This document shows positions 9,603-30,568 of a stretch of 45,691 nucleotides of DNA, piece after piece (within the stretch, counting starts at the first letter, position 1; every line of letters begins with the position of its first letter). The notes under the pieces are model-generated. The model was not told where the DNA came from and did no database searches. It was given only the letters and a program-made list of their open reading frames with translations. The stretch covers positions 157,501 to 203,191 of the forward strand of contig JAQBRF010000004.1 of NCBI GenBank assembly GCA_028286645.1, written 5' to 3'. Both the position numbers and the translations under genes were made by a program. Source of the stretch: Candidatus Nomurabacteria bacterium (lineage in GTDB: Bacteria > Patescibacteriota > Minisyncoccia > Phycocordibacterales > UBA5272).

Positions 9603-9606
9603 AGTT

Positions 9607-10867: not shown

Positions 10868-11623
10868 TTAATTTTTATTTTGCTTTCTCCATTCATATAG
10901 CGTTACAGCGGCCGCATTTGAAGCGTTTAATGATTCGCACTTTGGGTCTATTGAGATAGATAATTTAAAGTCGCAATGCTCAAGCGTTTTCTCTCTTATG
11001 CCTTTACCCTCTCCTCCTATGACAATTACACATGAAGTATCGAACTTTGTTTCAGATAGCTTAGTGTCTCCGCTGCCAGTTAGCCCGTAAGTCCAGAATC
11101 CATTATCTTTTAATTTCTTTAAGGTTGTATTTATATTTCCTATTTTTACTATAGGAATAGAAAAAATCATACCAGAGGATGCTTTTATTACTGTTCCGTT
11201 TAATAAAGTTTGATTATGTTCCGGCATCAGCACCGCATCTGCGCCAAAGGCTACGGCGCTTCTTATGATTGCTCCTACATTGTGCGGATCTTCTAATTCA
11301 TCAAGCAATACAAACAGAGAGCTTTCGCTTTTATCTTTTGCTGCCTTTAACGCTCCATCTAAATCTGCATACAAACTATTTTCATTTATAATCGCGCATA
11401 TTCCTTGATGCAAAGCGTTTCGTCCGACTAAGGCTTCAATTTCACCTGGAGTTATTATTTCATAATCCATTTTCTCTGCCTGAATTAAGCCGATAATTTT
11501 AGGATCGGCTTCTGCCTGACGGGTTAGATATAGTTTTTCGATTAGATCCTCCAATCCTCTTTCTTTAGCTAAAAAAGCCTCTTTAAGAGGGTTTTTACCA
11601 TATAAATATACTTTCTCTCTCAT
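10868..11623 (-). CDS. rlmB: TrmH/SpoU family 23S rRNA 2'-O-methyltransferase
   Basis: LDELEDPHNVGAIIRSA, IGGEGKG, ESLNAS. Confidence 0.88.
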   Translation of the reverse strand: MREKVYLYGKNPLKEAFLAKERGLEDLIEKLYLTRQAEADPKIIGLIQAEKMDYEIITPGEIEALVGRNALHQGICAIINENSLYADLDGALKAAKDKSESSLFVLLDELEDPHNVGAIIRSAVAFGADAVLMPEHNQTLLNGTVIKASSGMIFSIPIVKIGNINTTLKKLKDNGFWTYGLTGSGDTKLSETKFDTSCVIVIGGEGKGIREKTLEHCDFKLSISIDPKCESLNASNAAAVTLYEWRKQNKN

Positions 11624-11668: not shown

Positions 11669-12061
11669 TTAAGCTTCAATCACAAATTCCTCCCCTGTTT
11701 TCATGTGGTCCCAGTGAGAAATCAACGCTCCATATTCTTTATAAATATCTCTCATGTTTTCTTCTGGTAATTTTATCTTTTCGAAGCCATTAATCTCAAG
11801 CATCATATTTATTCCATTTAAAAGTTCGTCATAGTTTATACCCCCCTCTTCTTTTAACCTCTGCGCTCCGCCTTGGAGCGCTCCAATGATGGATTCTTCC
11901 CGCATGGGATTAGTCTTTGAAGCGAAAAATCCTTCATTATTTTTCATAACTTTTAAATATGCTAAATGCATGAAGTCATGTTTAATGTAGGATTTGCTTT
12001 CGTACTCCTTTCCGTCCATTAGATGAGACACGTGAGACTTTTTTATAAAAACATGTTTCAT
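11669..12061 (-). CDS. Hypothetical protein
   Basis: 130-aa ORF, backbone-like composition, 10 nt after upstream stop. Confidence 0.7.
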   Translation of the reverse strand: MKHVFIKKSHVSHLMDGKEYESKSYIKHDFMHLAYLKVMKNNEGFFASKTNPMREESIIGALQGGAQRLKEEGGINYDELLNGINMMLEINGFEKIKLPEENMRDIYKEYGALISHWDHMKTGEEFVIEA

Positions 12062-12071
12062 TTCAGTGAGA

Positions 12072-12527
12072 TTATGATTGGATAAATCTATATATTGCGC
12101 ACCTCAAAAATAATTCATTTCCTTGGAGGGACTCGGCGTCCGCATATTCTTTAGTAAAATCCTCGCATGATAAATGCACCTTCGTCTGTATGTCTTTCGG
12201 AGATTTTAGCGAGAGGGCCTCTTCCCAATCTGAGAGGCATTGCCTGTATGTTATTCCGTCCGGCTTATAAAATGGGCATTTACTTTCTATAGCAGTGTTT
12301 GAAAACTTTACAAATTCTGGGTCGTTTATGGAGTCATTTAAAGATGACCTCATATTTTTATAAAGACCATCCAGCTGATGTACCGCTGTGTCTATGTTAT
12401 TTTCATTAATTTTATTTTCTCCATAATAGAACAATCCAATCTCGGACCCTAATATAATTCCTAAGACTAATAAGACAATCGGTCTAACATAATCAGAATA
12501 ACTCCGTACGGTAATATTTTCATCCAT
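12072..12527 (-). CDS. Membrane-anchored hypothetical protein (start re-assigned to MDENIT)
   Basis: TM segment and 4 Cys; TATACT 6 nt before ATG; annotated start lies inside the inverted repeat. Confidence 0.7.
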   Translation of the reverse strand: MDENITVRSYSDYVRPIVLLVLGIILGSEIGLFYYGENKINENNIDTAVHQLDGLYKNMRSSLNDSINDPEFVKFSNTAIESKCPFYKPDGITYRQCLSDWEEALSLKSPKDIQTKVHLSCEDFTKEYADAESLQGNELFLRCAIYRFIQS

Positions 12528-12534
12528 AATTTCA

Positions 12535-12583
12535 GTATACCCCCACACCTATTTGGTTTTCAACAATAGGTGTGGGGGTATAC
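12535..12583. mobile_element. MITE-like inverted-repeat element, copy 1
   Basis: Perfect 19-bp IR gtatacccccacacctatt / aataggtgtgggggtatac; related element at 23126. Confidence 0.6.
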
Positions 12584-12637
12584 ATATTTTTATTTTGTCT
12601 AAAATAAAACACGGAGCTTATAGCTCCGCGTGCAATC

Positions 12638-13039
12638 TCATTGCTTCCTCCTTATCGTGAAATACACCTCCCAATTTTCGCATTGATGTGCTCTCGCGTG
12701 GAAGATCAGATGAAATTGTGGATGATTTTCTACCTGCATCCAGTAAATGACGTTATAGATTGTGTTCAGCAATTGAACGCGTGACCGATCTAGATCTTTT
12801 TCTTCCTCCGTTTTATTTCCAGGGAATTCAACTTTGAAATTCAGCCGGATTATTTCCATTGCGATGGCCTGGAGTCTTGGCGTCAAATGAAGAGATGCTA
12901 CAATTCGTCGCCCCATCATTTGCTCCAGTTGAGCCCTCCTCATCCTCAGAAGAATATTGGGCATTGGGTAATCCTTCGTCTGCTCCAACATGGAACTGAG
13001 AGATTTGAAGTTCTTGATCTTGCTTATAATATCAGCCAT
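12638..13039 (-). CDS. ORFan cassette protein (start re-assigned to MADIIS)
   Basis: AAGGAG 6 nt before ATG; TTGGCA-N17-TAGGAT (13099-13071); terminator cggagc/gctccg near 12601-12632. Confidence 0.7.
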   Translation of the reverse strand: MADIISKIKNFKSLSSMLEQTKDYPMPNILLRMRRAQLEQMMGRRIVASLHLTPRLQAIAMEIIRLNFKVEFPGNKTEEEKDLDRSRVQLLNTIYNVIYWMQVENHPQFHLIFHARAHQCENWEVYFTIRRKQ

Positions 13040-13166
13040 CTGGTGCTCCTTGTGCAGTTCTTCATAGTCTATCCTACTTCTAAATACTAAGTTTGCCAAC
13101 TAGCTTGATAATTTAAAAAACTAGACTATAATAATTTGGCAGCTTTGTTAATCATGGGAGGATATC

Positions 13167-13313
13167 ATCGCACGCCACAGCTATATCCCGCCGCCGCGCA
13201 AGCAGAAGCGCCGTGACAGGTTGAACAGGAATCGCAGAAAGGAAGAAAGGCAAAACGGCCTGCCCGGCCGTCGGCGGCACCAGGAATCGGAGGACGAAGT
13301 GGCAAAGAGCTGA
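13167..13313 (+). CDS. Putative 48-aa Arg/Lys-rich protein with ATC start
   Basis: TTGATA-N16-TATAAT (13105-13132), GGAGG 5 nt before ATC, terminator downstream. Confidence 0.45.
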   Translation: MARHSYIPPPRKQKRRDRLNRNRRKEERQNGLPGRRRHQESEDEVAKS

Positions 13314-13375
13314 TGTCCATGTGATTCCCGCGCTGGTCTTTCATGAAGTTCCTGTGTTTAAAATTCTTTAGGAGA

Positions 13376-13408
13376 AACAAAAGGAGCCCCGCAAGGCTCC
13401 CGTTTTTT
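13376..13408. terminator. Bidirectional intrinsic terminator
   Basis: A-rich flank, ggagcc-ccgcaa-ggctcc, T-tract. Confidence 0.75.
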
Positions 13409-13425
13409 ATCCCTCCGTATTATTC

Positions 13426-13899
13426 TTACTGGCTGGTTTCGGTGAGGTGGGGCTTTTCTTTGCAGTCGGTCTGGTCGTGCAGTTCTTCGAGGGTGGTGTA
13501 AGCCCACTCGCGCTCTTCATCTTCGACGACGAAAATCATGTTGTCTCTCCAGCTGCACGTGGGGCAGTAGCCGAAGAGGCGCGCCTCCCCTTCTTCGAGA
13601 GGGCGCTGGTACCCAAACGCCAACAGGTGGCCGACGAATGTCGCCGCTGCGATTACTTCAGAACCGTGTTGGGGAAGTCGCAGCTTTATGCCTTCGATCT
13701 CGTAATGACCCCACTCTGGACTGAAGGTGAGTCTGAGATCGTCCATGGTGTACCGGGACGGCAGGAACTTCCCGTTATCTTGCTTTACCCATTCCATGAC
13801 TTCAGCGACACTGCACAGAATGCGTACGGTCTCCTTTCCTTCCGGAGAGACGTGTTCATTCCTTTTCCAATCGATTTCATCGAAAGATTTTATGGCCAC
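13426..13899 (-). CDS. ORFan cassette protein with CPTC...H...C putative metal site
   Basis: AAGGAGG 5 nt before GTG; TTGACA-N17-TAGTAT (13958-13930). Confidence 0.75.
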   Translation of the reverse strand: MAIKSFDEIDWKRNEHVSPEGKETVRILCSVAEVMEWVKQDNGKFLPSRYTMDDLRLTFSPEWGHYEIEGIKLRLPQHGSEVIAAATFVGHLLAFGYQRPLEEGEARLFGYCPTCSWRDNMIFVVEDEEREWAYTTLEELHDQTDCKEKPHLTETSQ

Positions 13900-13954
13900 G
13901 ATGGCCTCCTTGGGAACGTATCGTCTTCTATACTACAATACTATATAGAGCGTG

Positions 13955-15364
13955 TCAATTACACCAAGCCATTCCTAAGTAAGGCACTGCCACTCGCCTC
14001 TTGGCACTTTCGCCGAAGAGTATGACCCCTCTTCTTTCGGGGACCTTCTCTTTTCCTCCTACATGGCGCGGATCTGTAACTGCATTAAATGATGAACCAA
14101 GGAAGACCGTGTTCTTCCCGAACTTCTGTGTTACTAGGTCTAGATTTTTATAAAGATTCTGTAATCCTATCTTTCTGCAAATATTTCCAAATAAATCGAG
14201 CTGTTCTACTTTTTTTGTCTCAAGTTTGGTTAGCCACACTCCAGTCGCTCTATAATCTGTATGGGGCTTATATATCTTTGTGAAATTTGTCGCAGCTTCT
14301 CTGATTATGTCTATTGGATTATTGGTCGAATCTCGTAGCTTTACTTCGACTGTGTGATATCCGAAGTCTTGAGTTTTAAGAAATATAGCAATTGAGTTTA
14401 TGAGAAGATCTTCTTTTCTGGCTCGCGATACTGCTTCTTCTATATTTTTAGAAAGCTGAGAGAAAAGGAAAGCTTTATCTTGGCTAGGAGGAGTAAATGT
14501 CTTTGTCGTAGAAATGCTTTTATGCTTTTCCTTTGTGACATTTACTTCCCATACGGATTCGCCATTTAATTCCATCCACATTTCCTGCATTGGCTTGTAA
14601 AAGACTTTCTCAACTGTTGTCTTTTGCATGCGAGCGATTTCTATTGCATTTTGAATATGCATTTTATTAAGTCTCTCAGTGGTCTTTTTCCCTATATTCC
14701 ATATCTTTCGTACTGGAGTTAATTTTAAATACTTTTCTATATCTGCTTTTGATATGACGGTCATTCCATGAGGCTTCTTCCACCCGCTTCCTAGCTTGGC
14801 TATTACCTTTGTGGGACCGAGTCCGACACTGAAGCTCACGCCAAGCTCTTTGTATAAATCATTGCTTATTCTTTCCGCGATCCCTTTATAAGTTAATCTA
14901 TGAAATCTCTGCAGTCCGGTGATGTCTGCGAAGCATTCATCAATTGAGTATTCTTCTACTACTGAGGTGTAGCGTCGCACTATAGAATACATTCTCTTTG
15001 AATATATCGTATATGTTTCATAGTCTCCCGGCACTACTATCACTTCCGGAAATTTCTTTTTTATTTCCCATACTGGCATAGCGCGCGTTATGCCCAAGCG
15101 TTTTGCTTCTATACTGATGGACGTCGCTATTCCTCTTTCCGCTCCGGTTACTATTGGTTTGCCGCGAAGGTTTTTATTTTGCGCTTGCTCGACAGACGCG
15201 AAGAATGAATCGCCGTCTATATGAAGAATAGCTTTTGGGAAAAGACTCGCAGAGTTAGATATGGATTCTATTAAGGATGGAGTTTGAATGATTGCGACTC
15301 TCTTAGGGTCTGTAGTTGATAGCAGATTCTTTTTGTCTAGCTGAGTGAATGTGATTGTGTTCAT
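13955..15364 (-). CDS. dinB: Y-family DNA polymerase (DinB/UmuC-like)
   Basis: HIDGDSFFASVE, YSIDE, AKLGS..KKPHG, QLDLF clamp-binding-like motif. Confidence 0.9.
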   Translation of the reverse strand: MNTITFTQLDKKNLLSTTDPKRVAIIQTPSLIESISNSASLFPKAILHIDGDSFFASVEQAQNKNLRGKPIVTGAERGIATSISIEAKRLGITRAMPVWEIKKKFPEVIVVPGDYETYTIYSKRMYSIVRRYTSVVEEYSIDECFADITGLQRFHRLTYKGIAERISNDLYKELGVSFSVGLGPTKVIAKLGSGWKKPHGMTVISKADIEKYLKLTPVRKIWNIGKKTTERLNKMHIQNAIEIARMQKTTVEKVFYKPMQEMWMELNGESVWEVNVTKEKHKSISTTKTFTPPSQDKAFLFSQLSKNIEEAVSRARKEDLLINSIAIFLKTQDFGYHTVEVKLRDSTNNPIDIIREAATNFTKIYKPHTDYRATGVWLTKLETKKVEQLDLFGNICRKIGLQNLYKNLDLVTQKFGKNTVFLGSSFNAVTDPRHVGGKEKVPERRGVILFGESAKRRVAVPYLGMAWCN

Positions 15365-15382
15365 GGTGATTGTTTTATTAGT

Positions 15383-15943
15383 TTATTTATATTTCCTAAT
15401 GACTGCTTTTAATACTGCTTCTATCTTTAGGGTTTCGGGTTTGGGATATATTTTCCGGAATTTTCTGTTTGCGGGCACAAGAACTGGGTTTCCATTTTCT
15501 AGTTCTAGGTATTTAAGCGTATATTCGTTTTCGACGAGTGCGAGTACGATGTCCCCTCTTACGGCTCTCTTTCCCCTCTCTACCAGCACCAGATCTCCTT
15601 CCATTATTCCCGCGTCCTTCATGCTTTCGCCCCTTACTTCAAGCATGTATGTCGATTCTTTTCTTTCTATTAAAAACTCATCTAGGGACATCAGGTCAGA
15701 TACGTCTTCATCAGATGGTGATGGGAATCCTGCTTGTACGGTTCCTAATCTCATTACTGTTCCGGTCTGAGTGAGTGATAATTTGTTCCCAGTTTTTTCT
15801 AGGATTCCTTCTTCTATCATCTTCCGGACTCTGTAAGCCACTGTGTTCTTCGAGGAGACATTAAAGAGGCTGCACATCTCTTCGTATGTCGGCATCCTCT
15901 TAAATTTATTAAAAAAGTTATTTAGTATTTCGCTGTCTTTCAT
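15383..15943 (-). CDS. lexA: LexA-type repressor with UmuD-like S24 domain
   Basis: N-terminal HTH (MPTYEEMC...SSKNTV), VQAGFPSP cleavage site, GESM Ser and TLK Lys. Confidence 0.85.
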   Translation of the reverse strand: MKDSEILNNFFNKFKRMPTYEEMCSLFNVSSKNTVAYRVRKMIEEGILEKTGNKLSLTQTGTVMRLGTVQAGFPSPSDEDVSDLMSLDEFLIERKESTYMLEVRGESMKDAGIMEGDLVLVERGKRAVRGDIVLALVENEYTLKYLELENGNPVLVPANRKFRKIYPKPETLKIEAVLKAVIRKYK

Positions 15944-15952
15944 GTATTTTAG

Positions 15953-15978
15953 TGTATTAGAACAAACGTTCTAATACA
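15953..15978. promoter_or_regulatory. SOS-box-like operator overlapping lexA promoter
   Basis: Perfect IR TGTATTAGAAC-N4-GTTCTAATACA with GAAC-N4-GTTC core, inside minus-strand TTGTAT-N17-TACACT. Confidence 0.85.
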
Positions 15979-16003
15979 AGGAAAAAGAGTGGATAAACAT
16001 ACG

Positions 16004-16038
16004 GTTATTAGAAATTGGTTATTAGTAATTAGAAAATG
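16004..16038. repeat. 7-nt period micro-array
   Basis: gttatta gaaattg gttatta gtaatta gaaaatg. Confidence 0.7.
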
Positions 16039-16196
16039 GTGGATTCTCAATACTATTTCCAGAATGGGAGTTGACGGAGTTTAAACTTCTTCTTGTGGTT
16101 TGGGTCGTTGACAAATCGTAGTGATTATTATAATGTAAATATAATTGCTGTTTTGATTATTAACTTTTGCGCAGTGCGCAAAGAAAGGTAAAGAAG

Positions 16197-16640
16197 ATGT
16201 CAGATCATCAGTTGGCACTTACCGCACTCGCGTTCGGACTCCTGATCATCGTGTCTCATTACGTGTACGCCGCGAGCTTACTCGTGAAGCTTTCTCAAGA
16301 GCCTGAGAACATTCTCGGGAACTGCTGGAACAGCACATTCTCCTACATGCTCGTATGGTTCGGCGGTCCGACGATGATGGCTGCCAGCTTGCCCTTCTGG
16401 TATCTTGAGGTGTTGAACCATACGGCGCGTACCGTCGAGCAGTTGTTTGTAATCGCGCTCGCCAGTCTCTGGGCTGGGTACCTACTAACGCTTCCCATCA
16501 TTCGCGTGATAGTTCTGGTCGCATTCCCGGGGACGCGGTTCCGCAGGTGGTATTCTCTGAAGATTCTGTATCTCGGAGAATCTCTCCTCGACCAAATGCA
16601 CAGAGAGATTCAAGTCCTCCGTAGACGTGCGCGCCTTTAA
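16197..16640 (+). CDS. Array cassette A, 3-TM membrane ORFan
   Basis: TTGACA at 16108, AAAGG before ATG 16197, terminator 16672-16705. Confidence 0.75.
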   Translation: MSDHQLALTALAFGLLIIVSHYVYAASLLVKLSQEPENILGNCWNSTFSYMLVWFGGPTMMAASLPFWYLEVLNHTARTVEQLFVIALASLWAGYLLTLPIIRVIVLVAFPGTRFRRWYSLKILYLGESLLDQMHREIQVLRRRARL

Positions 16641-16752
16641 TCCGTTCCCCAATTCTTTCCACCTCAACCAAGTCCCCGCACTCGCTGCGGGGGCATTTTT
16701 TATTTAGATTATAATTACACCCAACTTTAAGTTTTTTCAGTATTTAGTATCA

Positions 16753-16781
16753 TTGACAGCACCATCTATTTATGGTATACT
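16753..16781 (+). promoter_or_regulatory. Sigma70-type promoter
   Basis: TTGACA-N17-TATACT with TG extension. Confidence 0.85.
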
Positions 16782-16815
16782 ATAATAGTCTCGTTCTATA
16801 CATAAAGGTTACATT

Positions 16816-17175
16816 ATGGAATATAAGCTTTGGGAGCCCATGCCTCCAGCATTCGGAGAGGCCTCACCCGAGGTCGCAATCCTCGGTGGCACTGTATTCC
16901 TCGTCATAATCGTTCTTTCGTTCATGGCGGCTGCCTGGGTTACCGTGCGGCCGTCGGACCTGGAAGATGACCAGGACGACGAAACTACGCTCGATCGAAT
17001 GCATGGCGAGCTGAAGACGTTCGTGCGGCAGTACAAAAAGTGCCGTGCAGCGTTCGGGATATTCGCCAGCCAGTTCGACGATCTGGACGGATTCGCATGG
17101 TTCATCGCGAACCTGTTCATCTGGACGTATGTCCTCGACCCTCATCATCGCACCGTCTTCGAGTATCTGTTCTGA
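16816..17175 (+). CDS. Array cassette B, membrane ORFan
   Basis: Own promoter, AAAGG, terminator cgtcccgca/tgcggggcg plus T-tract at 17196-17230. Confidence 0.75.
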   Translation: MEYKLWEPMPPAFGEASPEVAILGGTVFLVIIVLSFMAAAWVTVRPSDLEDDQDDETTLDRMHGELKTFVRQYKKCRAAFGIFASQFDDLDGFAWFIANLFIWTYVLDPHHRTVFEYLF

Positions 17176-17301
17176 AGTGTCCTTCAACCTCAACTCGTCC
17201 CGCACTCACACTGCGGGGCGGTTTTTTATTTGACACAAACATTAAATTAGAGGAGGATTAAACTGAATTCCTATTAACGCAACATTAGTGAGGAAACCTG
17301 T

Positions 17302-18249
17302 ATGGCTATGAACAAGCTCGAGTCCAGCCCCTTGGTTCATTTCGAATCTAGGGACCGCCGCTTGCCTGAATGGTTCCGCTTAGGCTTCAGCTTCGGGACT
17401 GACGGCCCCGATCCTCTTCCCCCGCAAATCATTCTTGCGGTCGAGAAGTCCGCGCTAGTTCACTTTATGGAGGATATCGAAAGGAACACTCTCGTTAAAT
17501 ACGCAGGTGAGCACTTGACTCATCGGAACGCCAGTGCTGAATTTCTCACCGATATTCGCGAGCCGTGGGGCTTCGGTGGGATTCTCAAGCCTTATGCCCC
17601 TGCCGAGCCGAATGACTTTCTCCACTTCGCGATCAATATTCCGCGGGTAGAGAAAGAAGCCGGGTTTTGCCGAGATTGCGAGGGTACGGGAAAGGATCAG
17701 ATCACCGGTCAAGGAACCTGTCATCGTTGCAACGGAAGTAAGAAGGAAACGAAGCAGGATCAAAGCGAACTCAACATGATTTCGGCGACGCTTTGTGCGA
17801 TCCATCCGCTTCTAGAACGGCCATACGAAGTATGGCTGCGCGATGTGAAGGATGTGGGGCGCCCACAGCTCCTTTCACTCATCACGAGCTTCGGACCTCA
17901 ATGCCCGTTTATTGCGGTGGTTTTCTCCCCTGAGGTTGTCGGCTTTCTAGCCCGAAATGCAGGGCGCACTCTGCCGCAAATAGAGAGCGCCATGTGGAAG
18001 ACATACATTCAAATGGTGCCGGGTTATGAAAGGTACGGGCCCTATGGCTTTGAAGCGTCGGTCGATCGTGAAGGATGTCCGAGTTTCAGTGTTTCGCGCG
18101 ACGCCCTAATGTCCGTGAGCGGGTTTCGGCAGCCTTCGAGCAGGGATAGGATGAAATTTGATTCGACCGAAGTGATGAGCTACCATCAGCAAGTTTCACT
18201 TCTCGCCGGCATTGCCATGCTTTGCGATATGGTGAAAACCACTCGATAA
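17302..18249 (+). CDS. Array cassette C, ORFan with DnaJ-type zinc-finger motifs
   Basis: CRDCEGTG...CHRCNGS; TTGACA at 17230; terminator 18287-18310. Confidence 0.8.
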   Translation: MAMNKLESSPLVHFESRDRRLPEWFRLGFSFGTDGPDPLPPQIILAVEKSALVHFMEDIERNTLVKYAGEHLTHRNASAEFLTDIREPWGFGGILKPYAPAEPNDFLHFAINIPRVEKEAGFCRDCEGTGKDQITGQGTCHRCNGSKKETKQDQSELNMISATLCAIHPLLERPYEVWLRDVKDVGRPQLLSLITSFGPQCPFIAVVFSPEVVGFLARNAGRTLPQIESAMWKTYIQMVPGYERYGPYGFEASVDREGCPSFSVSRDALMSVSGFRQPSSRDRMKFDSTEVMSYHQQVSLLAGIAMLCDMVKTTR

Positions 18250-18346
18250 CTCGGAGCGAACGCTCTTCTTAACTTCAACCTTTTACACCCCGCCTCGGTG
18301 GGGTTTTTATTTTATTTAAATCTTTTTCATTTCATTTTTTTGAAAT

Positions 18347-18532
18347 AAAAAAGCAAACCTGATTGGTCTGCGATAATGGCAGCGGATAGATAAGGAGCGG
18401 TATCTCACTGGTGGCTCCCCGAGGACTGGCGTCCCTGAAACACGATTAACTGTGTCCCCATGATATGCGTATATTCTGCATCTCATCGTTTCAATGCCTC
18501 CCGCCTATTCTGCACAAATCTATCCGCCGCCG
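18347..18532 (-). ncRNA. Rod-like structured RNA of about 185 nt (6S-like candidate)
   Basis: 14-bp closing stem 18378-18391/18518-18531 (G-U only on minus strand), TG-n-TATTAT -10, terminator gcagacc/ggtttgc-U6. Confidence 0.65.
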
Positions 18533-18653
18533 ATTTAAATAATAACACATTCTTACAATTGCATATTTTTATTTAATAGTTGACTAAACACTATAATTAT
18601 TGTAGTTTAGAAGTAAAGTGATTTCGGTCATACTAAAACCATAGGGAGTTCTC

Positions 18654-19145
18654 ATGTTGAATCGAAAGGCTGTTCGCCGAATGATTGTTCTTGGCGCGAT
18701 AGTAGGGTTTTCCGCTTTTTTCTATCCTGAGACGAAAGATATGGTAGAGAGAAAGCAGGACGGATACCTCGTCCCTTTCGCTCAAGCCGCTGTAAGGAAC
18801 GTGATTACCACAGTATCTTTCGCGCGAGATGGTGACGAGATGGGTGATGCCATGCGCATGTGCAGTAATACTCCACATGAATATCACGTAAACGCACAAA
18901 GCTTCTGGATCACGTGCAGCGTGTCCGCGGATTTCTACCGCACGCTTTCATCTTCGGACGTCGAAGGCGGGCCGGCTCTAGAGGTTATCCAGACCACTCG
19001 TCTGCAGTTAAAAGACGGAGCAGTTCTCATCGCTCTTGGTTACAAAGTGAAGAACATCTTCGTCATCGCTCAAGCGTGGAGGCAGAAGCTCGACGAAGAT
19101 GTGATGCGAGGAGAAATCTCACGCGTTGAGAAATTCGTCCCATAG
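18654..19145 (+). CDS. Array cassette D, membrane-anchored or secreted ORFan
   Basis: TTGACT-N17-TAGTTT (18580-18608), AGGGAG, terminator gccccg/cggggc-T. Confidence 0.78.
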   Translation: MLNRKAVRRMIVLGAIVGFSAFFYPETKDMVERKQDGYLVPFAQAAVRNVITTVSFARDGDEMGDAMRMCSNTPHEYHVNAQSFWITCSVSADFYRTLSSSDVEGGPALEVIQTTRLQLKDGAVLIALGYKVKNIFVIAQAWRQKLDEDVMRGEISRVEKFVP

Positions 19146-19285
19146 GAGCCTTTTCACACCCCTTTCGCCCCGCGCGATCGGGGCTTTTTTATATTTATCA
19201 AAACCTTTCCTAAATGAAAATAGATTTGACATATAATCTTTTATATAAGAGTATAGAAAACGTACTCTCACCTACGGAGAAGAAC

Positions 19286-19459
19286 GTGGAAACTGCGACT
19301 GTGAAATACCATGTAGTGGTCCAACAAACGGGCGCCGGCTCATGGGCGCATCTGAAAGACAATAAGGAAGTGGGAGCCCACGGACGCAACCAAAACGAAG
19401 CCGTCGGGGCAATGGTGACAGCGTACCCGAATATCTTCTCCGTTATTGTGGAGAAATAA
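19286..19459 (+). CDS. Array cassette E, 57-aa HicB/UPF0150-like protein
   Basis: GGAG 6 nt before GTG 19286; TTGACA at 19226 lies in the longer annotated ORF; YHVVV..GSWAH..AHGRNQNEAV pattern. Confidence 0.6.
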   Translation: METATVKYHVVVQQTGAGSWAHLKDNKEVGAHGRNQNEAVGAMVTAYPNIFSVIVEK

Positions 19460-19605
19460 TGGCGGAAGTGAATCGCTTCTTCACCGTTATCCGCTTAAGG
19501 CTGCCCTAACCCGGCGGTTTTTATTTGCTTGACTTAGTTTTATATTAATTACAAAATGTAAGAGATTCAAGTTCTAAACCTTTTAAACATTGTGAAGGAA
19601 AGATT

Positions 19606-20070
19606 ATGGCGAAGAATCCTCTTGCTAAGGCCACGGAAGATCTGATCAATGCCGCGGAAGAAAAAGGCGCAGATAGGAAAAAGTTCAAAAGAGCCCTGCT
19701 GCTGTTTCTGATGGAGAATTTCTCGAAGGAAGTCATCGTCGACGTTATGCTAGCCTTCAGTCCCCAGATGCTGGATTCTGTTTCCAAAACATCCCCGCCG
19801 TCTCGGCTGCTTGATACGGATATAGCTCTCCATCCGGTCTTAAATGAAGTCCTGTATGGCCAAGGGTTGGACACTCGAATTGAGAATCAGTGCCGCGCTG
19901 AAGGTATGGAGCGGACAGGAGATCTGGTCGTAAGGTCTTCAAAAATTCCCAACTTAGGAAGACGGTCATATCAGAAAATTGACGACTTGCTGGCTGTTCG
20001 AGGTCTCAAGCGTGGTATGGATGTCCTGGGCTGGCAGTCAAAACCCCTTCAGTCGGGAAGCCCCACCTGA
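19606..20070 (+). CDS. Array cassette F, stand-alone RNA polymerase alpha-CTD-like protein
   Basis: LDTRIENQCRAEGMERTGDLV...IPNLGRRSYQKIDDLLAVRGLKRGM aligns by eye with RpoA C-terminus; TTGACT-N17-CAAAAT. Confidence 0.8.
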   Translation: MAKNPLAKATEDLINAAEEKGADRKKFKRALLLFLMENFSKEVIVDVMLAFSPQMLDSVSKTSPPSRLLDTDIALHPVLNEVLYGQGLDTRIENQCRAEGMERTGDLVVRSSKIPNLGRRSYQKIDDLLAVRGLKRGMDVLGWQSKPLQSGSPT

Positions 20071-20182
20071 TTCGCCCCCGATAGAAATAGCTTCACCTCG
20101 CTTCTCGGCGGGGATTTTTTTGACAAGCATAAGAAAAAAATGCAAGATGTAAGTCAAGCTCATAATTGAAAGGCGTAGTGCT

Positions 20183-20524
20183 ATGTCCAGCTCTTTGTAT
20201 GAACCGAATTTTGGAGAGGCATTCTATCCGTTTTACCAGGAGAGGATCCTCGAAGCTCTTAGGAAGCTTCCAGATGATAGCCCGGCACACGAGCGTGAGA
20301 CGCAGCTCCGGCTGATCGCTCAAGTTCAGCTGCATTTGGAGACCGACCGCAAGGTGTATGTCAACAGCGCGATGGGATCTAGAATTTCCCGTCAAGTGGG
20401 TCAGGATCTGGAGAATATCTGGAGTCAAATCAAAGTTGAGCAACTTGCGGGTTTCTCGGATGAGCAGATGAAGCTCTATCAGACCTTGGACTCAATGGTT
20501 CGTACTCTGTTGGTTTACAAATAA
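20183..20524 (+). CDS. Array cassette G, helical ORFan
   Basis: TTGACA-N17-CAAGAT (20120-20148), terminator ccgtcgc-gaaa-gcggcgg. Confidence 0.75.
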   Translation: MSSSLYEPNFGEAFYPFYQERILEALRKLPDDSPAHERETQLRLIAQVQLHLETDRKVYVNSAMGSRISRQVGQDLENIWSQIKVEQLAGFSDEQMKLYQTLDSMVRTLLVYK

Positions 20525-20627
20525 GTCCTCCTCACTTAACCCGTCGCGAAAGCGGCGGATTTTTATTTGACACTTATATTATAAAAAAGTAGGCTAAACT
20601 AAATTCCCACCACTGGAGGTCGTCATC

Positions 20628-20918
20628 ATGACTTCGCTTGAGCAAGTTGTTGCGGAAGAAAGAAAACGGCTGGAAGCCGAGTTCCCGAAATTCTTGGCGG
20701 ACATCAATGGGTCCCAAGATTATTACTCTATGTATGTATTGGCTCAGGCTCTTGTAAAGGCCAAAAAAGGAGAAGCACAAGCTGCAATTGTCGGAGAAGT
20801 CAAAGACTTCGATGGCACAAGCCGCACCATCACAGTGGAAGAAGAACGGCGACTGTGGCGGTTAGCTAACACCTTGTCCGGTGAGTCGATGGTTCAGTCT
20901 CATATCGACTTTTTATGA
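20628..20918 (+). CDS. Array cassette H, ORFan
   Basis: TTGACA-N17-TAGGCT (20567-20595), GGAGG, terminator acccgc/gcgggt. Confidence 0.75.
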   Translation: MTSLEQVVAEERKRLEAEFPKFLADINGSQDYYSMYVLAQALVKAKKGEAQAAIVGEVKDFDGTSRTITVEEERRLWRLANTLSGESMVQSHIDFL

Positions 20919-21029
20919 ATCCCGTTCGCTCGATTACCCGCTTCACGGCGGGTTTGTTTTTGCCCTGTAACCTAAGCAAAAGTTGGTAACAGAACTTATC
21001 CTATATAATGCTCTGCTTTGATATAGGCT

Positions 21030-21635
21030 TTATTCATTTACCAACTTCGCATATACAACCAATCTCTTGCTGTAGGTTTTTTTTAATTGGTTCCATACTC
21101 CAGCACATGTAATAAGATTTAGCCGAGACCCGTTATTTCCATTAAATATTTCCTCAGTCGGCGCATTATCATATGGATATGTTTCTGTTTTTTCTACTTT
21201 AAAATGGAGTTTAGTTCCATCATTTCTTGTTATGTATACATCATCCCCTTCCTTTAATAACTTTAAATTTTTAAACACCCCGCTAATAGCCAATGCATTA
21301 TCAAGATGTCCCGCGATCACGGCGCTCCCATTAAATCCCGGAGCGGTGCCATATTTGTACCATCCTACATCTTTAAAGTTTCCAGGTGTTGCCATATTTC
21401 CATCTTTTGTAACCCCTACATACTTAACTGTCGTGTCTATATTTAAAGATGGTATTTGAATTGACTTTGGAAGTTCAGTTTCTGCGTATTCATATTTAAT
21501 TACTTGTGGCGGGGTATTTATTTCTAAGTCGCTTGTTACGCGGTCATAAGTTTTATAGGAGTATAGAAAAAAAACACCGAGGGCTATGATAATGATAATT
21601 ACTATTAATTTGTCAGTTTTTCTTCTTAATTTCAT
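21030..21635 (-). CDS. Class F sortase
   Basis: N-terminal TM, VGWY, PG..GSAVIAGHLD, LNLITCAG, RLVVYA. Confidence 0.9.
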   Translation of the reverse strand: MKLRRKTDKLIVIIIIIALGVFFLYSYKTYDRVTSDLEINTPPQVIKYEYAETELPKSIQIPSLNIDTTVKYVGVTKDGNMATPGNFKDVGWYKYGTAPGFNGSAVIAGHLDNALAISGVFKNLKLLKEGDDVYITRNDGTKLHFKVEKTETYPYDNAPTEEIFNGNNGSRLNLITCAGVWNQLKKTYSKRLVVYAKLVNE

Positions 21636-21649
21636 AAATGTATTTATTC

Positions 21650-21680
21650 TAGAAAGCGTACCTCTAAGGTACGCTTTCTA
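21650..21680. terminator. 13-bp hairpin between substrate and sortase genes
   Basis: tagaaagcgtacc-tctaa-ggtacgctttcta. Confidence 0.6.
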
Positions 21681-21696
21681 TTAAAACACATTTAGC

Positions 21697-22443
21697 TTAT
21701 TTAGTTGAGTAGTTTCTCTTTAGAAGATAAACTCCGCTACCGATAACTGCAAGTGAGGCTAGTAGGAATGCTGTATTTAGCAATCCATCTCCCGATCCTG
21801 TATTTGGAAGTCCTGGAGTTGTTCCTGGATCAGTTGTTCCAGTTCCTGTTGTAGCTCCTGTTCCACCTGTGAAAGCAACCGTTCCTGAGGTCATGGCTGC
21901 TGATCCCGTTGAAGTCGTTCCTGTTGTAGGAGAAATAGCTCCTCCTGCACTAGTTGTTACGGAATTAGGAACGAAGCTTGATGGAAGTACAGAGACAGTT
22001 ATAGTTCCTGTAGGAGAAACATCTGCTGTAACGTTACATACTAGAGAAACATTTGTACTGGTTCCATTACCAACCACTAGTGGAGTATCTAGAACGAAAA
22101 TATTTGTTCCGTTTAGAAGTCCTACTAGTACGTTATTTCCTGTCGTCAGCGAAGCGCCAGTTCCGGTATTTACTATTCTACAATTTTCAAGCGAGCTTGC
22201 ATTGGCTCCTCCTCCGAAGCTGACTGCTACTGGAATGGAAGCTATACGAGCTGTGTCGCCTGCTGTACCTGTTGCGCTTAGATTAATATTTGCAATTGCA
22301 ACATTAGTAGAACCTGCTGCAACTGATGCGGGAGTGGTCATACCAACTCCTAGTCCGCTTGCAACTTGAGCAAATGATAAACCTGGGATAGCTACTATGG
22401 CTGCTATCGCGAGGCTTAGAGAAACTTTATTTCTTAATTTCAT
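21697..22443 (-). CDS. Secreted Gly/Thr-rich surface protein with LPXTG sorting signal
   Basis: Signal peptide; C-terminal LPNTG + TM + KR tail; adjacent to sortase. Confidence 0.88.
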   Translation of the reverse strand: MKLRNKVSLSLAIAAIVAIPGLSFAQVASGLGVGMTTPASVAAGSTNVAIANINLSATGTAGDTARIASIPVAVSFGGGANASSLENCRIVNTGTGASLTTGNNVLVGLLNGTNIFVLDTPLVVGNGTSTNVSLVCNVTADVSPTGTITVSVLPSSFVPNSVTTSAGGAISPTTGTTSTGSAAMTSGTVAFTGGTGATTGTGTTDPGTTPGLPNTGSGDGLLNTAFLLASLAVIGSGVYLLKRNYSTK

Positions 22444-22610
22444 ATCTGTGGTTATTTAATCTTTATAAATTGACAATTATAATTAGCAATTATTCACTGC
22501 CACATATGTTTTATTCTAATCTGAAAACAAAGTGGCTCTACACTATAAGACGAAGTAAGAAAGATCTATATTACAAAAATATTCTTGACACCCAGTCATT
22601 CTATTGCTTT

Positions 22611-23114
22611 TTATCTAATACCCGTATCAATATCGAAATCAATTGTAGTGGTTGAAGACTGTTCTACAGTTATTTTCTTTTTCTCTCCTCCCCCAATTCC
22701 TGCAGGATTTACTTGTATATAATACGTTCCTGGTTCAATTTCTATAGCGTATGTACCGTCCGGATGAATCTTCCATCTTTCTTTGATTGTAATTTTATCT
22801 GACTCATAAACTAAAACTCTGCGTGATGTATATTCACCCTGTGTTGTAGGACATGGATTCTCAGGTTGCTCCACAGGACAATTAGGACCTATTGTAATTT
22901 TCCCCGTAACATATCCCAAGCTTTTCGCTGTGCTCGAGGATGTATCTAATGAAGTAGTGGCTGTGTTTTCTATAACAGGAGTGCTTGTGCTAGCTATTTC
23001 TACTACAGCAATAGGAGCTCTGGACGGAGTAGTGTTTCTGTCTAGGTATAAGTAAACTCCTCCGATAATAATGAGAAATAATCCACCAAAGACGATCTTG
23101 CCTAATGGGGTCAT
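22611..23114 (-). CDS. Membrane-anchored protein with carboxypeptidase-regulatory-like beta sandwich (start re-assigned to MTPLGK)
   Basis: TM, GPNCPVE..C, DGTYAIEIEPGTYYI; annotated start lies in the IR element. Confidence 0.75.
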   Translation of the reverse strand: MTPLGKIVFGGLFLIIIGGVYLYLDRNTTPSRAPIAVVEIASTSTPVIENTATTSLDTSSSTAKSLGYVTGKITIGPNCPVEQPENPCPTTQGEYTSRRVLVYESDKITIKERWKIHPDGTYAIEIEPGTYYIQVNPAGIGGGEKKKITVEQSSTTTIDFDIDTGIR

Positions 23115-23125
23115 GATTATAATAG

Positions 23126-23234
23126 TATACCCCCATACCAACTTCACACAAGTCTAATGAAGGTAAACAAGAAAATAAATATTTAGATTATTCTATAAAT
23201 ACTTTTCTACTTTTTAAGTTGGTGTGGGGGTATA
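23126..23234. mobile_element. MITE-like inverted-repeat element, copy 2
   Basis: 19-bp IR with one mismatch tatacccccataccaactt / aagttggtgtgggggtata, 71-bp AT-rich interior. Confidence 0.6.
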
Positions 23235-23235
23235 T

Positions 23236-23312
23236 AGTTATTAGTAATTAGTTACTAGGGAAGATTAATAACATAAGGAATTTCTGAGAACTGGAAGCTG
23301 CCAACTGAAAAC
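23236..23312. repeat. Two 7-nt period micro-arrays
   Basis: agttatt agtaatt agttact; ctgagaa ctggaag ctgccaa ctgaaaa. Confidence 0.65.
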
Positions 23313-24196
23313 TATTTTTTTACCATGTACATATCCTGTCCGAAGCCTCCTACGCCAACGAATTCTACGCAGTCATCATTATTCAATATCCATTCATAAG
23401 GGCGGCATCCTTGGCAACCGCCTTCTCGAGTCTTCGGATCGTATGGTCCATTCGGGCAAACAAATACTTTTTCTGGGCCCATTCTGCCGGCTTCCTTCCT
23501 TGCCTCTTTTACTTTATACGCTACATCAAACACATCTTTATGAGCTTTTTCTAAATCTAATAATGGAACTTCTACTAATTTGTCGCTTTCTAAATACCAA
23601 TAGCTAGCACGCGTCACTTTTCTTTTTTGAAGCGCATTACAAAGCAAAAGATAAATGGGCAATTGCAGCGACCCATCTTTCTCTTCATTCTTTCCAGTTT
23701 TGAAATCAATTATATGAAGGGAGTCCGTTTCGGGTAAGTATTCTATCCAGTCCACTAATCCATTTAAAATAATGTTGTGATCCTCGCTTATGTAATAGTT
23801 GCACGGCATTGTGTCGCGCTTTAACTTAATGCATTTTTTCACTAAGAACTTAGGATCTTTTATTACATTTTCGATCATTTTCTTTCCGCGTGCCTTAAAT
23901 TCATTCTCTTCCTCTAAAGAATTAAATCCTCCCATTTTCCCCGAAACCTTTTTCCAGGCTTCTTCATACTTTTTCAGCAAGTCATAACTCATGCGTGTAT
24001 CGGCTGGATAATCACCCAAGCCTTCTAAAACCTCATGCACAGCTACTCCTAAAGCCATGTGAGGATTTACTATAGACATCTTGTGTCCAGTCGCAGGATT
24101 TTTATACATGTTATGTAAATAATACAGTCGCGGGCATTTCAAAAAATCTCCCATGGAGGAGTGTGATACCCATACTGCACTATATTTATCCGCCAT
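23312..24196 (-). CDS. PD-(D/E)XK nuclease, RecB/AddB-like, with putative Fe-S cysteines (start re-assigned to MADKYS)
   Basis: SHS....FLKCPR, G.AVH..LE, GLVD, IIDFKTG, QLPIY, CP...CQGC; TATACT 6 nt before ATG. Confidence 0.88.
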   Translation of the reverse strand: MADKYSAVWVSHSSMGDFLKCPRLYYLHNMYKNPATGHKMSIVNPHMALGVAVHEVLEGLGDYPADTRMSYDLLKKYEEAWKKVSGKMGGFNSLEEENEFKARGKKMIENVIKDPKFLVKKCIKLKRDTMPCNYYISEDHNIILNGLVDWIEYLPETDSLHIIDFKTGKNEEKDGSLQLPIYLLLCNALQKRKVTRASYWYLESDKLVEVPLLDLEKAHKDVFDVAYKVKEARKEAGRMGPEKVFVCPNGPYDPKTREGGCQGCRPYEWILNNDDCVEFVGVGGFGQDMYMVKK

Positions 24197-24289
24197 AGGA
24201 ATAGTATAGTGCAGAATCTCCAATTAACAATTTCTGGTTTACAAAAAAATCTGCTTGACAATCTATTTTGTTAGATGTAGATTATATTT

Positions 24290-30405: not shown

Positions 30406-30481
30406 GAAGCGACACGCCATCGCCACAACCCGCCGCGTCCATCAAGGACCGGCGGTTTTTTTATTTTTTAATTTCTTAGTA

Positions 30482-30510: not shown

Positions 30511-30568
30511 GCCCTAGAACCCTGCTGTTTGATTTACTCACCTGATTCAATTCTAAAGGAATTCTGAC

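What the first reader, a model, noticed from the sequence alone, without database searches (positions are those of the whole stretch)
19606..20070. Stand-alone RNA polymerase alpha-CTD mimic
Seen: the C-terminal 65 aa follow RpoA CTD (L-x-x-R-x-x-N, AE, GDLV, PNLG-RR-S, I-x-D-x-L-A-x-RGL-x-x-GM...W) with no alpha N-terminal domain and no ribosomal operon context. Established: these Arg, Asn, Gly and Ser positions contact UP-element DNA, and alpha-CTD binds activators and NusA. The GL..GM...W tail recalls proteobacterial RpoA. Inference: a transcription modulator or decoy, perhaps acting on the AT-rich tracts ahead of the cassette -35 boxes or on host transcription.
Basis: partly seen in the sequence, partly recalled or inferred. 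Interest (0 to 1): 0.75.

Follow-up and report, generated by a model that had tools for sequence, protein, structure and literature searches.

The report
Free-standing RNA polymerase alpha-CTD-like protein
A tiny-genome soil bacterium carries an imported orphan gene whose product copies only the DNA-touching tail domain of RNA polymerase's alpha subunit; it is a real but already catalogued and functionally untested kind of protein.

Summary
ORF 19606-20070 (154 aa) ends in a true homologue of the RNA polymerase alpha C-terminal domain (aCTD). E. coli aCTD scores E 9.5e-7. A profile built without the query scores it 57.7 bits, against 11.3 for the best of 1000 shuffles. The predicted fold superposes on solved aCTDs at 1.3-1.6 A. 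It misses Pfam's cut-off (15 vs 23.8 bits).

The DNA-contacting "265 determinant" is kept: 5 of 7 residues identical and 1 conservative. The domain resembles proteobacterial RpoA, not the genome's own RpoA.

The gene is a singleton orphan in a GC-rich array of eight self-contained promoter-gene-terminator cassettes, inside a slot that differs in the sister genome.

The most likely role is an RNA-polymerase-independent binder of A/T-rich DNA that modulates transcription. A decoy role is disfavoured. Function and expression are untested.

Free aCTD proteins are already named in databases for CPR bacteria and phages, and this scan has noted them on other DNA in at least 54 genomes. I found no functional study. 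I file it as a new member of a known, unstudied kind.

The parts
19497..19526 (+). Terminator-like hairpin plus T-run that closes the preceding cassette (ORF 19214-19459) and forms the A/T tract just upstream of this gene's -35 box
   Evidence: Pattern scan, stem 19497-19521 with a T-rich tail; direct-repeat family D3
19529..19557 (+). Promoter-like site, TTGACT, 17-nt spacer, CAAAAT
   Evidence: Consensus scan, 9 of 12 matches. This is a pattern match only; the number of promoter-like sites in the region equals the shuffle expectation (7 found, mean 7.0).
19594..19602 (+). Shine-Dalgarno-like GAAGGAAAG, with its AGGA six bases before the ATG
   Evidence: Read directly from the sequence
19606..20070 (+). 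ORF of 154 aa: the free-standing aCTD-like protein
19606..19788 (+). N-terminal helical module, residues 1-61 (helices 5-19, 24-38, 41-61). It has no detectable relatives.
   Evidence: AlphaFold models. No Pfam or PHROG family. Best structural match Z 4.8, which is generic for helical proteins.
19789..19827 (+). Predicted flexible linker, residues 62-74
   Evidence: pLDDT below 50 for residues 62-67; block means 50-59
19828..20040 (+). aCTD-like helix-hairpin-helix domain, residues 75-145. It corresponds to E. coli alpha 249-323.
   Evidence: 28 of 68 aligned positions are identical to enterobacterial RpoA 251-322.
19939..19944 (+). Codons S112 and K113, the junction where the four residues equivalent to E. 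coli V287-L290 (helix 3, core of the 287 determinant) are missing
   Evidence: HMMER alignment gap; multiple alignments; no helix between 109 and 119 in the model
20096..20121 (+). Terminator-like hairpin plus T-run that closes this cassette and runs directly into the next cassette's TTGACA
   Evidence: stem 20096-20113, tail ATTTTTTTGA; repeat family D1; motif scan
16167..20953 (+). GC-rich array of eight same-strand single-gene cassettes (ORFs 16167-16640, 16816-17175, 17302-18249, 18654-19145, 19214-19459, 19606-20070, 20183-20524, 20628-20918). The gene is the sixth cassette.
   Evidence: Eight + strand hairpin-plus-T-run sites, one after each ORF. GC3 is 0.48-0.69 against 0.20-0.42 in eight other genes of the window. 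No Pfam or PHROG family for the other seven.

Best explanation
The gene is a horizontally acquired, self-contained cassette: its own promoter-like site, ribosome-binding site and terminator. It encodes a small cytoplasmic DNA-binding protein.

The protein has three parts: a novel three-helix N-terminal module, a flexible linker, and an aCTD-like helix-hairpin-helix domain. That domain keeps the surface with which RNA polymerase alpha touches the minor groove and backbone of A/T-rich UP-element DNA. It has lost the surfaces that alpha uses to touch activators (287 determinant) and sigma region 4 (261 determinant).

The most likely mode of action is binding A/T-rich DNA on its own, apart from RNA polymerase. 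It would then modulate transcription, most simply by occupying UP-like tracts that the polymerase's own aCTD would otherwise use.

Shown: domain homology, the residue pattern, absence of the alpha N-terminal domain, foreign composition, and sporadic distribution. Inferred: DNA binding, A/T preference, any effect on transcription, and that the protein is made at all.
For: Homology:
- E. coli aCTD scores E 9.5e-7.
- NF003513 scores E 1.9e-6.
- A query-free profile scores 57.7 bits against 11.3 for the best of 1000 shuffles.
- The model has pLDDT 84-96 over residues 75-145 and superposes on aCTD-DNA complexes (3n4m TMt 0.83-0.84; Caulobacter aCTD on AT-rich DNA, 9zum_A, TMt 0.80, rmsd 1.3).

DNA-contact surface: a paper passage lists the 265 determinant as residues 265, 268, 294, 296, 298, 299, 302 (PMC10853779, passages seen). 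The query has R91, N94, N116, G118 and S121 identical, R120 for K298, and K124 for E302.

Protein-contact surfaces lost:
- 287 determinant (285-289, 315, 317, 318): three residues deleted, T285->S, E286->S, R317->D, L318->V, G315 kept.
- 261-determinant positions: R255->E, P256->V, D258->Y, E261->G.

Not a duplicate of the genome's own rpoA:
- BLASTP finds no CTD alignment.
- The 11 RpoA CTDs of the order form a clade that excludes the query (SH-aLRT 98).
- The own-order profile does not detect the query.

Foreign, self-contained gene:
- GC3 is 0.54 against 0.20-0.42 in eight other genes of the window.
- Promoter-like and terminator-like sites flank it.
- The island DNA was found in 1 of 201 genomes of the order, namely itself.

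Related free aCTD proteins exist:
- 31 of the 34 hits scanned carry PF03118. Most have non-RpoA architectures; P0017 and P0048 also carry pieces of alpha N-terminal domains. I scanned 34 of the 47 non-self hits.
- Helix-3 shortening recurs in one of them (P0022, a 3-residue gap).
Against: - Pfam's curated cut-off is not reached.
- The deletion removes the first helix of the second helix-hairpin-helix in the model. This could weaken folding or DNA binding.
- C269->Q95 and E302->K124 differ from E. coli.
- The protein is a singleton: only itself among 5.8 billion clusters by word search. No close relative turned up in viral or metagenome contigs. So no conservation or selection can be measured.
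- The fold model was built from an alignment of aCTD sequences, so it is not independent of the sequence match.
- There are no binding or expression data of any kind.
Confidence: 0.5

Rival explanations
1. Neutral passenger or decaying relic. The cassette was imported with its neighbours, the aCTD-like domain is degenerating (helix 3 lost), and the protein has no role in this cell.
For: - It is a singleton orphan (no hit covers the whole length).
- All seven neighbouring cassette genes lack any family, and the largest also has only itself in the database.
- The slot is fast-changing: the same-genus genome G128 holds different cargo between the same core genes.
- The Pfam score is sub-threshold.
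Against: - The frame is intact, with start, SD-like site and terminator.
- The residues that matter for DNA contact are the ones kept, while the neighbouring surfaces have drifted. That looks like selective retention.
- The domain is modelled with high confidence, pLDDT 84-96.
Confidence: 0.2
2. Adaptor or activator. The N-terminal module docks on RNA polymerase or another factor, and the aCTD-like domain supplies an extra DNA anchor in trans, raising transcription at promoters preceded by A/T tracts such as the cassette junctions.
For: - The architecture (module, flexible linker, aCTD) copies that of alpha itself.
- aCTD is found fused to sigma-70 region 4 in 7 of the 34 hits scanned (P0007, P0015, P0016, P0026, P0032, P0037) and in a phylum genome (L038). 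So the domain is reused in transcription proteins.
- T-runs abut the -35 boxes of three cassettes in the island.
Against: - The N-terminal module has no recognisable relative or fold, best Z 4.8.
- No partner is known.
- The A/T tracts are explained already as terminator tails.
Confidence: 0.15
3. Decoy. The free domain soaks up proteins that normally dock on RNA polymerase aCTD (activators, sigma region 4, NusA).
For: True aCTD homology and fold. That aCTD is a docking site for activators and sigma is in the passages seen (PMC1874639). NusA docking is recalled, not checked here.
Against: - The two mapped protein-contact surfaces are not conserved. The 287 determinant is largely deleted or changed, and the 261 determinant is changed at 4 of 4 acidic or neighbouring positions examined.
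- The domain does not resemble the genome's own RpoA CTD, so it would be a poor mimic for this cell's own factors.
Confidence: 0.08
4. A generic helix-hairpin-helix nucleic-acid binder working outside transcription (repair, recombination, uptake or mobile-element biology), with the aCTD resemblance reflecting only shared ancestry.
For: - Several relatives also give weaker hits to other HhH families such as HHH_5 and HHH_2.
- The slot also holds an S24 peptidase / Y-family polymerase pair.
Against: - The best matches are specifically aCTD, not other HhH families.
- aCTD-specific contact residues are kept.
- No functional link to the repair genes was seen: they are on the opposite strand, have native composition, and lie outside the cassette array.
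Confidence: 0.07

Closest known systems
C-terminal domain of the bacterial RNA polymerase alpha subunit (RpoA aCTD, Pfam PF03118; E. coli structures 1LB2, 3K4G, 3N4M)
   Same: Homologous sequence: 28 of 68 positions identical to enterobacterial RpoA 251-322. Same predicted fold, rmsd 1.3-1.7 A. Same DNA-contact residues: R265, N268, N294, G296 and S299 identical, K298->R. Same GL..GM...W tail.
   Different: It is not attached to the alpha N-terminal domain and is not in the rpsD-rpoA-rplQ context. Four residues (V287-L290, helix 3) are missing. The 261 and 287 protein-contact determinants are not conserved. It scores below the Pfam and NCBIfam cut-offs.
Database-named 'RNA polymerase alpha subunit C-terminal domain-containing proteins' of CPR bacteria, e.g. 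P0044 (133 aa, Candidatus Yonathbacteria by its sources), and the 174-aa protein of genome G034
   Same: Short free-standing proteins built as an N-terminal helical part, a linker and a proteobacterial-type aCTD with the W tail. They occur sporadically in the same order: 3 of 201 genomes at E<=1e-18 with profile A2, which contains the query and P0044. In G034 the gene is again a GC-rich insert, 0.52 in a 0.40 background.
   Different: Their N-terminal parts are coiled-coil-like and unrelated to this one. Their aCTDs are complete and pass Pfam (58-82 bits). Identity to the query is only 35-42% over the domain. No function is known for any of them.
Phage-encoded small aCTD proteins, e.g. 'RNA polymerase, alpha subunit, C-terminal' of uncultured Caudovirales, Mycobacterium phage Mithril and Rhodococcus phage Finch (names from the BFVD listing)
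   Same: Free aCTD-like domain in proteins of 111-149 aa. They are the top structural matches in the viral library. A protein-atlas cluster of 53 viral members carries PF03118 (feature score 0.87, a lead only).
   Different: The matches are weak: best Foldseek E 6.7e-3, none at E<=0.001. tblastn against 50,697 phage records found no phage gene, only chromosomal rpoA in mislabelled records. No phage genes were seen around this gene.
Multi-domain aCTD proteins: tandem aCTD repeats, and aCTD fused to sigma-70 region 4, Sel1, HTH_3, T5orf172 or FGE-sulfatase domains
   Same: They show that aCTD is a portable module used outside RNA polymerase. They are the strongest library hits to the query because they hold many copies.
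   Different: They are large proteins (183-1917 aa) with recognisable partner domains. This protein has one copy and an unknown partner module.
Phage morons and PeSL (promoter-early / stem-loop) cassettes of T4-type phages (PMC2839356, PMC4122927; search listing and abstract starts only)
   Same: Context only. Single genes each carry their own promoter and terminator, deviate in composition, are joined by similar terminator-promoter junctions, and sit in a hypervariable slot.
   Different: The array lies in a bacterial chromosome with no phage genes nearby. No exchange mechanism was shown here.

Membership tests
Pfam PF03118 RNA_pol_A_CTD (domain family) | Reaches the family's curated gathering score | tested here: not met
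   15.0 bits, E 0.021, against a cut-off of 23.8. The match covers residues 90-129 only.
Pfam PF03118 RNA_pol_A_CTD (domain family) | Significant sequence similarity to bona fide aCTDs by other measures | tested here: met
   phmmer against solved aCTDs gives E 9.5e-7, and the 20 best distinct sequences are all RNAP alpha. A query-free profile of 61 domains scores 57.7 bits against 11.3 for the best of 1000 shuffles. Those 61 domains were found with the query, so the set is not unbiased.
Pfam PF03118 RNA_pol_A_CTD (domain family) | Overall aCTD fold | tested here: met
   The predicted model superposes on 3k4g, 3n4m, 1lb2 and 9zum with TMt 0.74-0.85 and rmsd 1.3-1.7 A over 66-72 columns. The model came from an aCTD-containing alignment, so this is not independent of the sequence match.
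Pfam PF03118 RNA_pol_A_CTD (domain family) | Complete second helix-hairpin-helix, i.e. helix 3 (E. coli about 286-292; the numbering of the helix is recalled) | tested here: not met
   There is a four-residue gap at V287-L290, and no helix lies between residues 109 and 119 in the model.
Pfam PF03118 RNA_pol_A_CTD (domain family) | DNA-binding 265 determinant (residues 265, 268, 294, 296, 298, 299, 302; PMC10853779 passage) | tested here: met
   Five of 7 are identical (R91, N94, N116, G118, S121), one is conservative (K298->R120) and one is changed (E302->K124). Binding itself was not tested.
RpoA, the RNA polymerase alpha subunit (TIGR02027, NF003513 and related equivalogs) | N-terminal dimerisation and assembly domains (PF01193, PF01000) | tested here: not met
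   No such hit at E<=1. Residues 1-61 form a three-helix module with no relatives.
RpoA, the RNA polymerase alpha subunit (TIGR02027, NF003513 and related equivalogs) | Reaches the equivalog cut-off | tested here: not met
   NF003513 scores 27 bits against 302; TIGR02027 scores 12.1 against 227.8.
RpoA, the RNA polymerase alpha subunit (TIGR02027, NF003513 and related equivalogs) | Ribosomal-protein operon context | tested here: not met
   The neighbours are orphan ORFs. The genome's 321-aa rpoA lies elsewhere, next to an S4-like gene.
Free-standing (non-RpoA) aCTD-domain proteins as named in UniRef/UniProt | aCTD-like domain in a protein without the alpha N-terminal domains | tested here: met
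   Relatives of this kind: P0013 E 8.5e-7, P0020 E 2.7e-6, P0044 E 7e-4.
Free-standing (non-RpoA) aCTD-domain proteins as named in UniRef/UniProt | Shared N-terminal module with a described subfamily | tested here: inconclusive
   Alignment A1 shows no conserved N-terminal columns. The best stretches of P0013 and P0015 reach back only to query residues 42 and 34.
Moron / PeSL-type self-contained gene cassette (context) | Own promoter and terminator, with deviant base composition | tested here: met
   Promoter-like site 19529-19557, with hairpin-plus-T-run sites at 19497-19521 and 20096-20113 (patterns only). GC3 is 0.54 against 0.20-0.42 in eight other genes of the window.
Moron / PeSL-type self-contained gene cassette (context) | Resides in a phage genome | tested here: not met
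   No PHROG family in 13 ORFs of the region. Core bacterial genes lie on both sides.

The most novel reading that the evidence does not exclude
The domain is of the proteobacterial RpoA type rather than the bacterium's own type, and CPR bacteria live attached to other microbes. The protein, and its sporadic relatives in other CPR genomes, could therefore be aimed at another organism's transcription machinery or UP elements, for instance those of a proteobacterial host. Alternatively it could be a cassette-specific regulator that recognises the shared T-run/-35 junctions of the imported cassettes, giving the foreign gene set its own control layer.
Probability: 0.07. Interest if true: 0.7.

Novelty: new member of a known kind. 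Interest (0 to 1): 0.3.

Why it matters
aCTD is one of the best-mapped protein surfaces in bacterial transcription, yet free copies of it outside the polymerase have, as far as my searches show, never been studied.

This copy is a natural separation-of-function variant: the DNA-contact surface is kept and the activator and sigma surfaces are gone. A simple binding and reporter test would show whether a free aCTD can compete for UP-like DNA.

It also gives one of the orphan cassettes that pepper this tiny genome a recognisable biochemical activity, a handle on what such imported cassettes bring.

By itself it is a modest finding. The kind is already catalogued, and this member is a singleton without expression data.

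Tried and rejected
- Self-association of the N-terminal module (residues 1-72, two copies): complex prediction gave no verdict, score 0.15 against a mark of 0.32. This is not evidence either way.
- Fold of the N-terminal module alone: mean pLDDT 73.7. The best of 48,161 chains scored Z 4.8, all generic helical matches, so no family can be named.
- Word-index homologue search found only the protein itself. The same held for the 315-aa neighbour.
- Pattern searches of viral contigs and metagenome contigs with the protein found no relative.
- The search for related loci with alignments A1 and A2 returned an error, 'no conserved stretch'. I then used a single protein, which found only the record already known as G034.
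- tblastn of phage and plasmid collections found only chromosomal gamma- and betaproteobacterial rpoA in mislabelled records, 42-43% identity over residues 88-143. No phage or plasmid gene was found.
- PHROGs gave no family for this ORF or for 12 other ORFs of the region.
- Expression: no RNA holder was listed. On laying four runs, only the probable source run covers the ORF. Two other soil runs hold small pieces of neighbouring DNA (19212-19448 and around 15000-15600) but nothing over 19606-20070. The one RNA run matched only about 37 nt at 18395-18437, with 5-7 differences. No conclusion on expression or on strain variation can be drawn.
- Rfam: nothing at gathering score in the whole window, and only chance-level hits in 18200-18700.
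- Literature: five searches found no paper on free-standing aCTD proteins. Only the held library was searched, and no supplements were consulted.
- Recent duplication of the genome's own rpoA CTD was considered and rejected.
- A prophage origin of the island was considered. Nothing supports it, but it is not excluded.

Full report
**What is there.** The ORF at 19606-20070 (+) encodes 154 aa. The window is part of an 862,894-bp, 5-contig genome (98.4% complete) with about 39% GC. Earlier notes of this scan call it a Candidatus Nomurabacteria (CPR/Patescibacteria); I did not check that name. The genome's real rpoA (321 aa, beside an S4-like gene) lies about 16 kb before the window.

**Is the aCTD resemblance real?** Yes.
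- phmmer against all solved structures returns 28 distinct sequences at E<=1. The 20 with E<0.001 are all RNA polymerase alpha, led by E. coli aCTD (1lb2_B, E 9.5e-7, query 81-145). The only non-alpha rows are two chance-level ones (E 0.38, 0.93).
- NCBIfam's rpoA model NF003513 gives E 1.9e-6.
- A full HMMER scan of 1.84 billion representatives gives 47 non-self hits at E<=0.001. Of the 34 I scanned with Pfam, 31 carry PF03118. The three that do not (P0002, P0006, P0009) are long repetitive proteins. The 13 I did not scan all matched my aCTD profile.
- A profile of 61 aCTD domains built without the query scores it 57.7 bits; the best of 1000 shuffles scores 11.3.
- The AlphaFold model (mean pLDDT 83.9; 84-96 over residues 75-145) matches solved aCTDs with TM(target) 0.74-0.85 and rmsd 1.3-1.7 A. 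The model was built from an aCTD-rich alignment, so it is not independent evidence.
- The one failure is Pfam's own cut-off: 15.0 bits against 23.8.

**Anatomy.** Residues 5-61 form three helices with no relatives and no informative fold match, best Z 4.8. Residues 62-74 are a low-confidence linker. Residues 75-145 are the aCTD-like domain.

The mapping to E. coli numbering is query n = n+174 up to S112 and n+178 from K113. I checked it on an enterobacterial RpoA whose CTD equals the E. coli chain.

| Surface (source) | E. coli residues | State in this protein |
|---|---|---|
| 265 determinant, DNA contact (PMC10853779 passage) | 265, 268, 294, 296, 298, 299, 302 | R91, N94, N116, G118, S121 identical; K298->R120; E302->K124 |
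| 287 determinant, activator contact | 285-289, 315, 317, 318 | V287-L290 deleted; T285->S, E286->S, R317->D, L318->V; G315 kept. The model shows no helix where helix 3 should be |
| 261-determinant positions, sigma contact (PMC1874639 passages) | R255, P256, D258, E261 | E, V, Y, G |

So the DNA-touching surface is selectively kept and the protein-touching surfaces are not. One other free aCTD protein (P0022) also has a 3-residue gap in helix 3.

**Origin.** The domain is not a copy of the genome's own RpoA CTD.
- BLASTP finds no CTD alignment between them.
- In a 62-row tree of the domain core, the 11 RpoA CTDs of the order form a clade (SH-aLRT 98) that excludes the query. The query sits, unresolved (81), with P0020, P0048 and the G055 protein. 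The tree has only 66 columns and most forks are open.
- A profile of those 11 own-order CTDs does not lift the query above shuffles, whereas a profile of three proteobacterial RpoA CTDs scores it 34.5 bits.
- The order's RpoAs share NIRTVGGL...DGLG.KG and lack the GM...W tail. The query has GDLV, PNLGRRS and RGL..GM...W, like proteobacterial alpha.
- Among solved structures the score falls from gammaproteobacteria (32 bits) through Caulobacter (25) to Thermus (14.6).

Donors from other phyla with a similar tail are not excluded.

**Context.** The gene is the sixth of eight same-strand single-gene units between 16167 and 20953. Each unit is followed by a GC-rich hairpin plus T-run, and three of these run straight into a TTGACA.

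The eight ORFs have GC3 of 0.48-0.69, against 0.20-0.42 in eight other genes of the window. None of the other seven has a Pfam or PHROG family.

The island is the longest of 90 high-GC segments in the genome. A second array with the same layout lies at G000:C5:31000-35000.

The island DNA was found in 1 of 201 genomes of the order, itself. The same-genus genome G128 and the same-family genome G011 lack the flanking Y-family polymerase and the sortase. G128 holds different cargo between the conserved SpoU-methylase and AddB-like genes. So window positions of about 11.7-23.3 kb are a variable slot.

**Relatives of the kind.**
- PF03118 matched 195 of 201 genomes of the order. 25 genomes gave two or three matches at E<=1e-4; matches are not copy numbers.
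- Short frames among these include G137 (148 aa, = P0044), G157 (158 aa, own-lineage-type CTD) and G034 (179 aa).
- The proteobacterial-type form, searched with profile A2 at E<=1e-18, is rare: 3 of 201 genomes in the order and 4 of 401 in the phylum sample, each count including the window's own genome. The profile contains the query and P0044.
- P0044 is named by its sources 'RNA polymerase alpha subunit C-terminal domain-containing protein'.
- Small phage proteins with the same name head the viral structure matches, though weakly (best E 6.7e-3).
- An atlas search points to clusters of roughly 124-131-aa PF03118 proteins in bacteria and viruses. These are leads only, with a feature score of 0.87.
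- aCTD also occurs in tandem arrays and fused to sigma-70 region 4, Sel1, HTH_3 and other domains.

Five literature searches found no functional study of free aCTD proteins. Earlier notes of this scan report free aCTD proteins on other DNA, 56 findings in at least 54 genomes, and GC-rich orphan cassettes elsewhere in this genome. My own calls agree with both.

**Mechanism.** The best reading (confidence 0.5) is an RNA-polymerase-independent binder of A/T-rich DNA that modulates transcription. The simplest mechanism is competition for UP-like tracts.

The rivals are:
- a neutral or decaying passenger (0.2);
- an adaptor or activator that uses the N-terminal module to dock on a partner (0.15);
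- a decoy for aCTD-binding proteins (0.08), disfavoured by the loss of the 261 and 287 surfaces and by the lack of likeness to the cell's own aCTD;
- a generic HhH protein acting outside transcription (0.07).

Nothing here shows that the protein is made. Only the probable source run covers the ORF, and no RNA holder is listed.

**Verdict.** This is a divergent singleton member of an already catalogued but unstudied kind, with a neat separation-of-function residue pattern. Interest is modest at 0.3.

Noticed in passing
window 11670-23300: Variable slot. Between the conserved SpoU-methylase (10868-11623) and AddB-like nuclease (23312-24223) genes, the same-genus genome G128 carries quite different cargo, including a 1278-aa surface protein. 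This genome instead has orphan ORFs, an S24 peptidase/Y-family polymerase pair, the cassette array, and a sortase with an LPXTG-type substrate.
   Followed up: partly
window 13955-15943 (- strand): An S24 (LexA/UmuD-like) peptidase gene directly upstream of a Y-family DNA polymerase gene. Neither was found in the same-genus or same-family genome with the polymerase as query.
   Followed up: partly
window 21030-22443 (- strand): A sortase gene and an adjacent 248-aa protein ending in LPNTG plus a hydrophobic tail. The sortase was not found in the two closest genomes.
   Followed up: partly
window 18316-18650: A gap of about 335 nt without an ORF inside the cassette array, with an A/T-rich inverted repeat (18304-18321 / 18334-18351). 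A 37-nt stretch (18399-18435) matches very abundant short contigs of a soil RNA run with 5-7 differences. Rfam gives nothing. It is probably a chance likeness to an abundant RNA, but this is unexplained.
   Followed up: partly
G000:C5:31000-35000 (locus L041): A second array of six same-strand small GC-rich ORFs, each followed by a GC-rich hairpin plus T-run and a TTGAC-type promoter-like site. None has a Pfam family. The hairpin-TTTT(T)ATTTGACA junction occurs only beside high-GC segments of the genome.
   Followed up: partly
window 13426-14025 and 29986-31021: Two further short high-GC patches (0.50-0.56) with orphan ORFs, one with a weak CD225-like hit. They are probably single cassettes of the same class.
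   Followed up: no
G000:C5 about 285270-285410 (locus L002, ORF 1477-1764, - strand): A 95-aa protein with an N-terminal CxxC...CxxC zinc-ribbon-like motif and a C-terminal helix-hairpin-helix that gives a weak PF03118 hit (E 6.3e-4). It is a different kind of small HhH protein in the same genome.
   Followed up: no
proteins P0004 and P0008: Proteins of 343 and 301 aa that begin with a hydrophobic, signal-peptide-like stretch followed by three or four tandem aCTD domains. Exported aCTD repeats would be odd for a DNA-binding module.
   Followed up: no
proteins P0007, P0015, P0016, P0026, P0032, P0037 and locus L038 520-1791: Recurrent fusion of aCTD copies with a sigma-70 region 4 domain, some with Sel1 repeats. 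This joins in one chain the two RNA polymerase modules that touch each other at UP/-35 promoters.
   Followed up: no
locus L017 (G128:C1) 1388-1903 and 9534-9887: The sister genome also has isolated high-GC small ORFs (GC 0.54-0.59) wedged between core genes, at places where this genome has other inserts.
   Followed up: no
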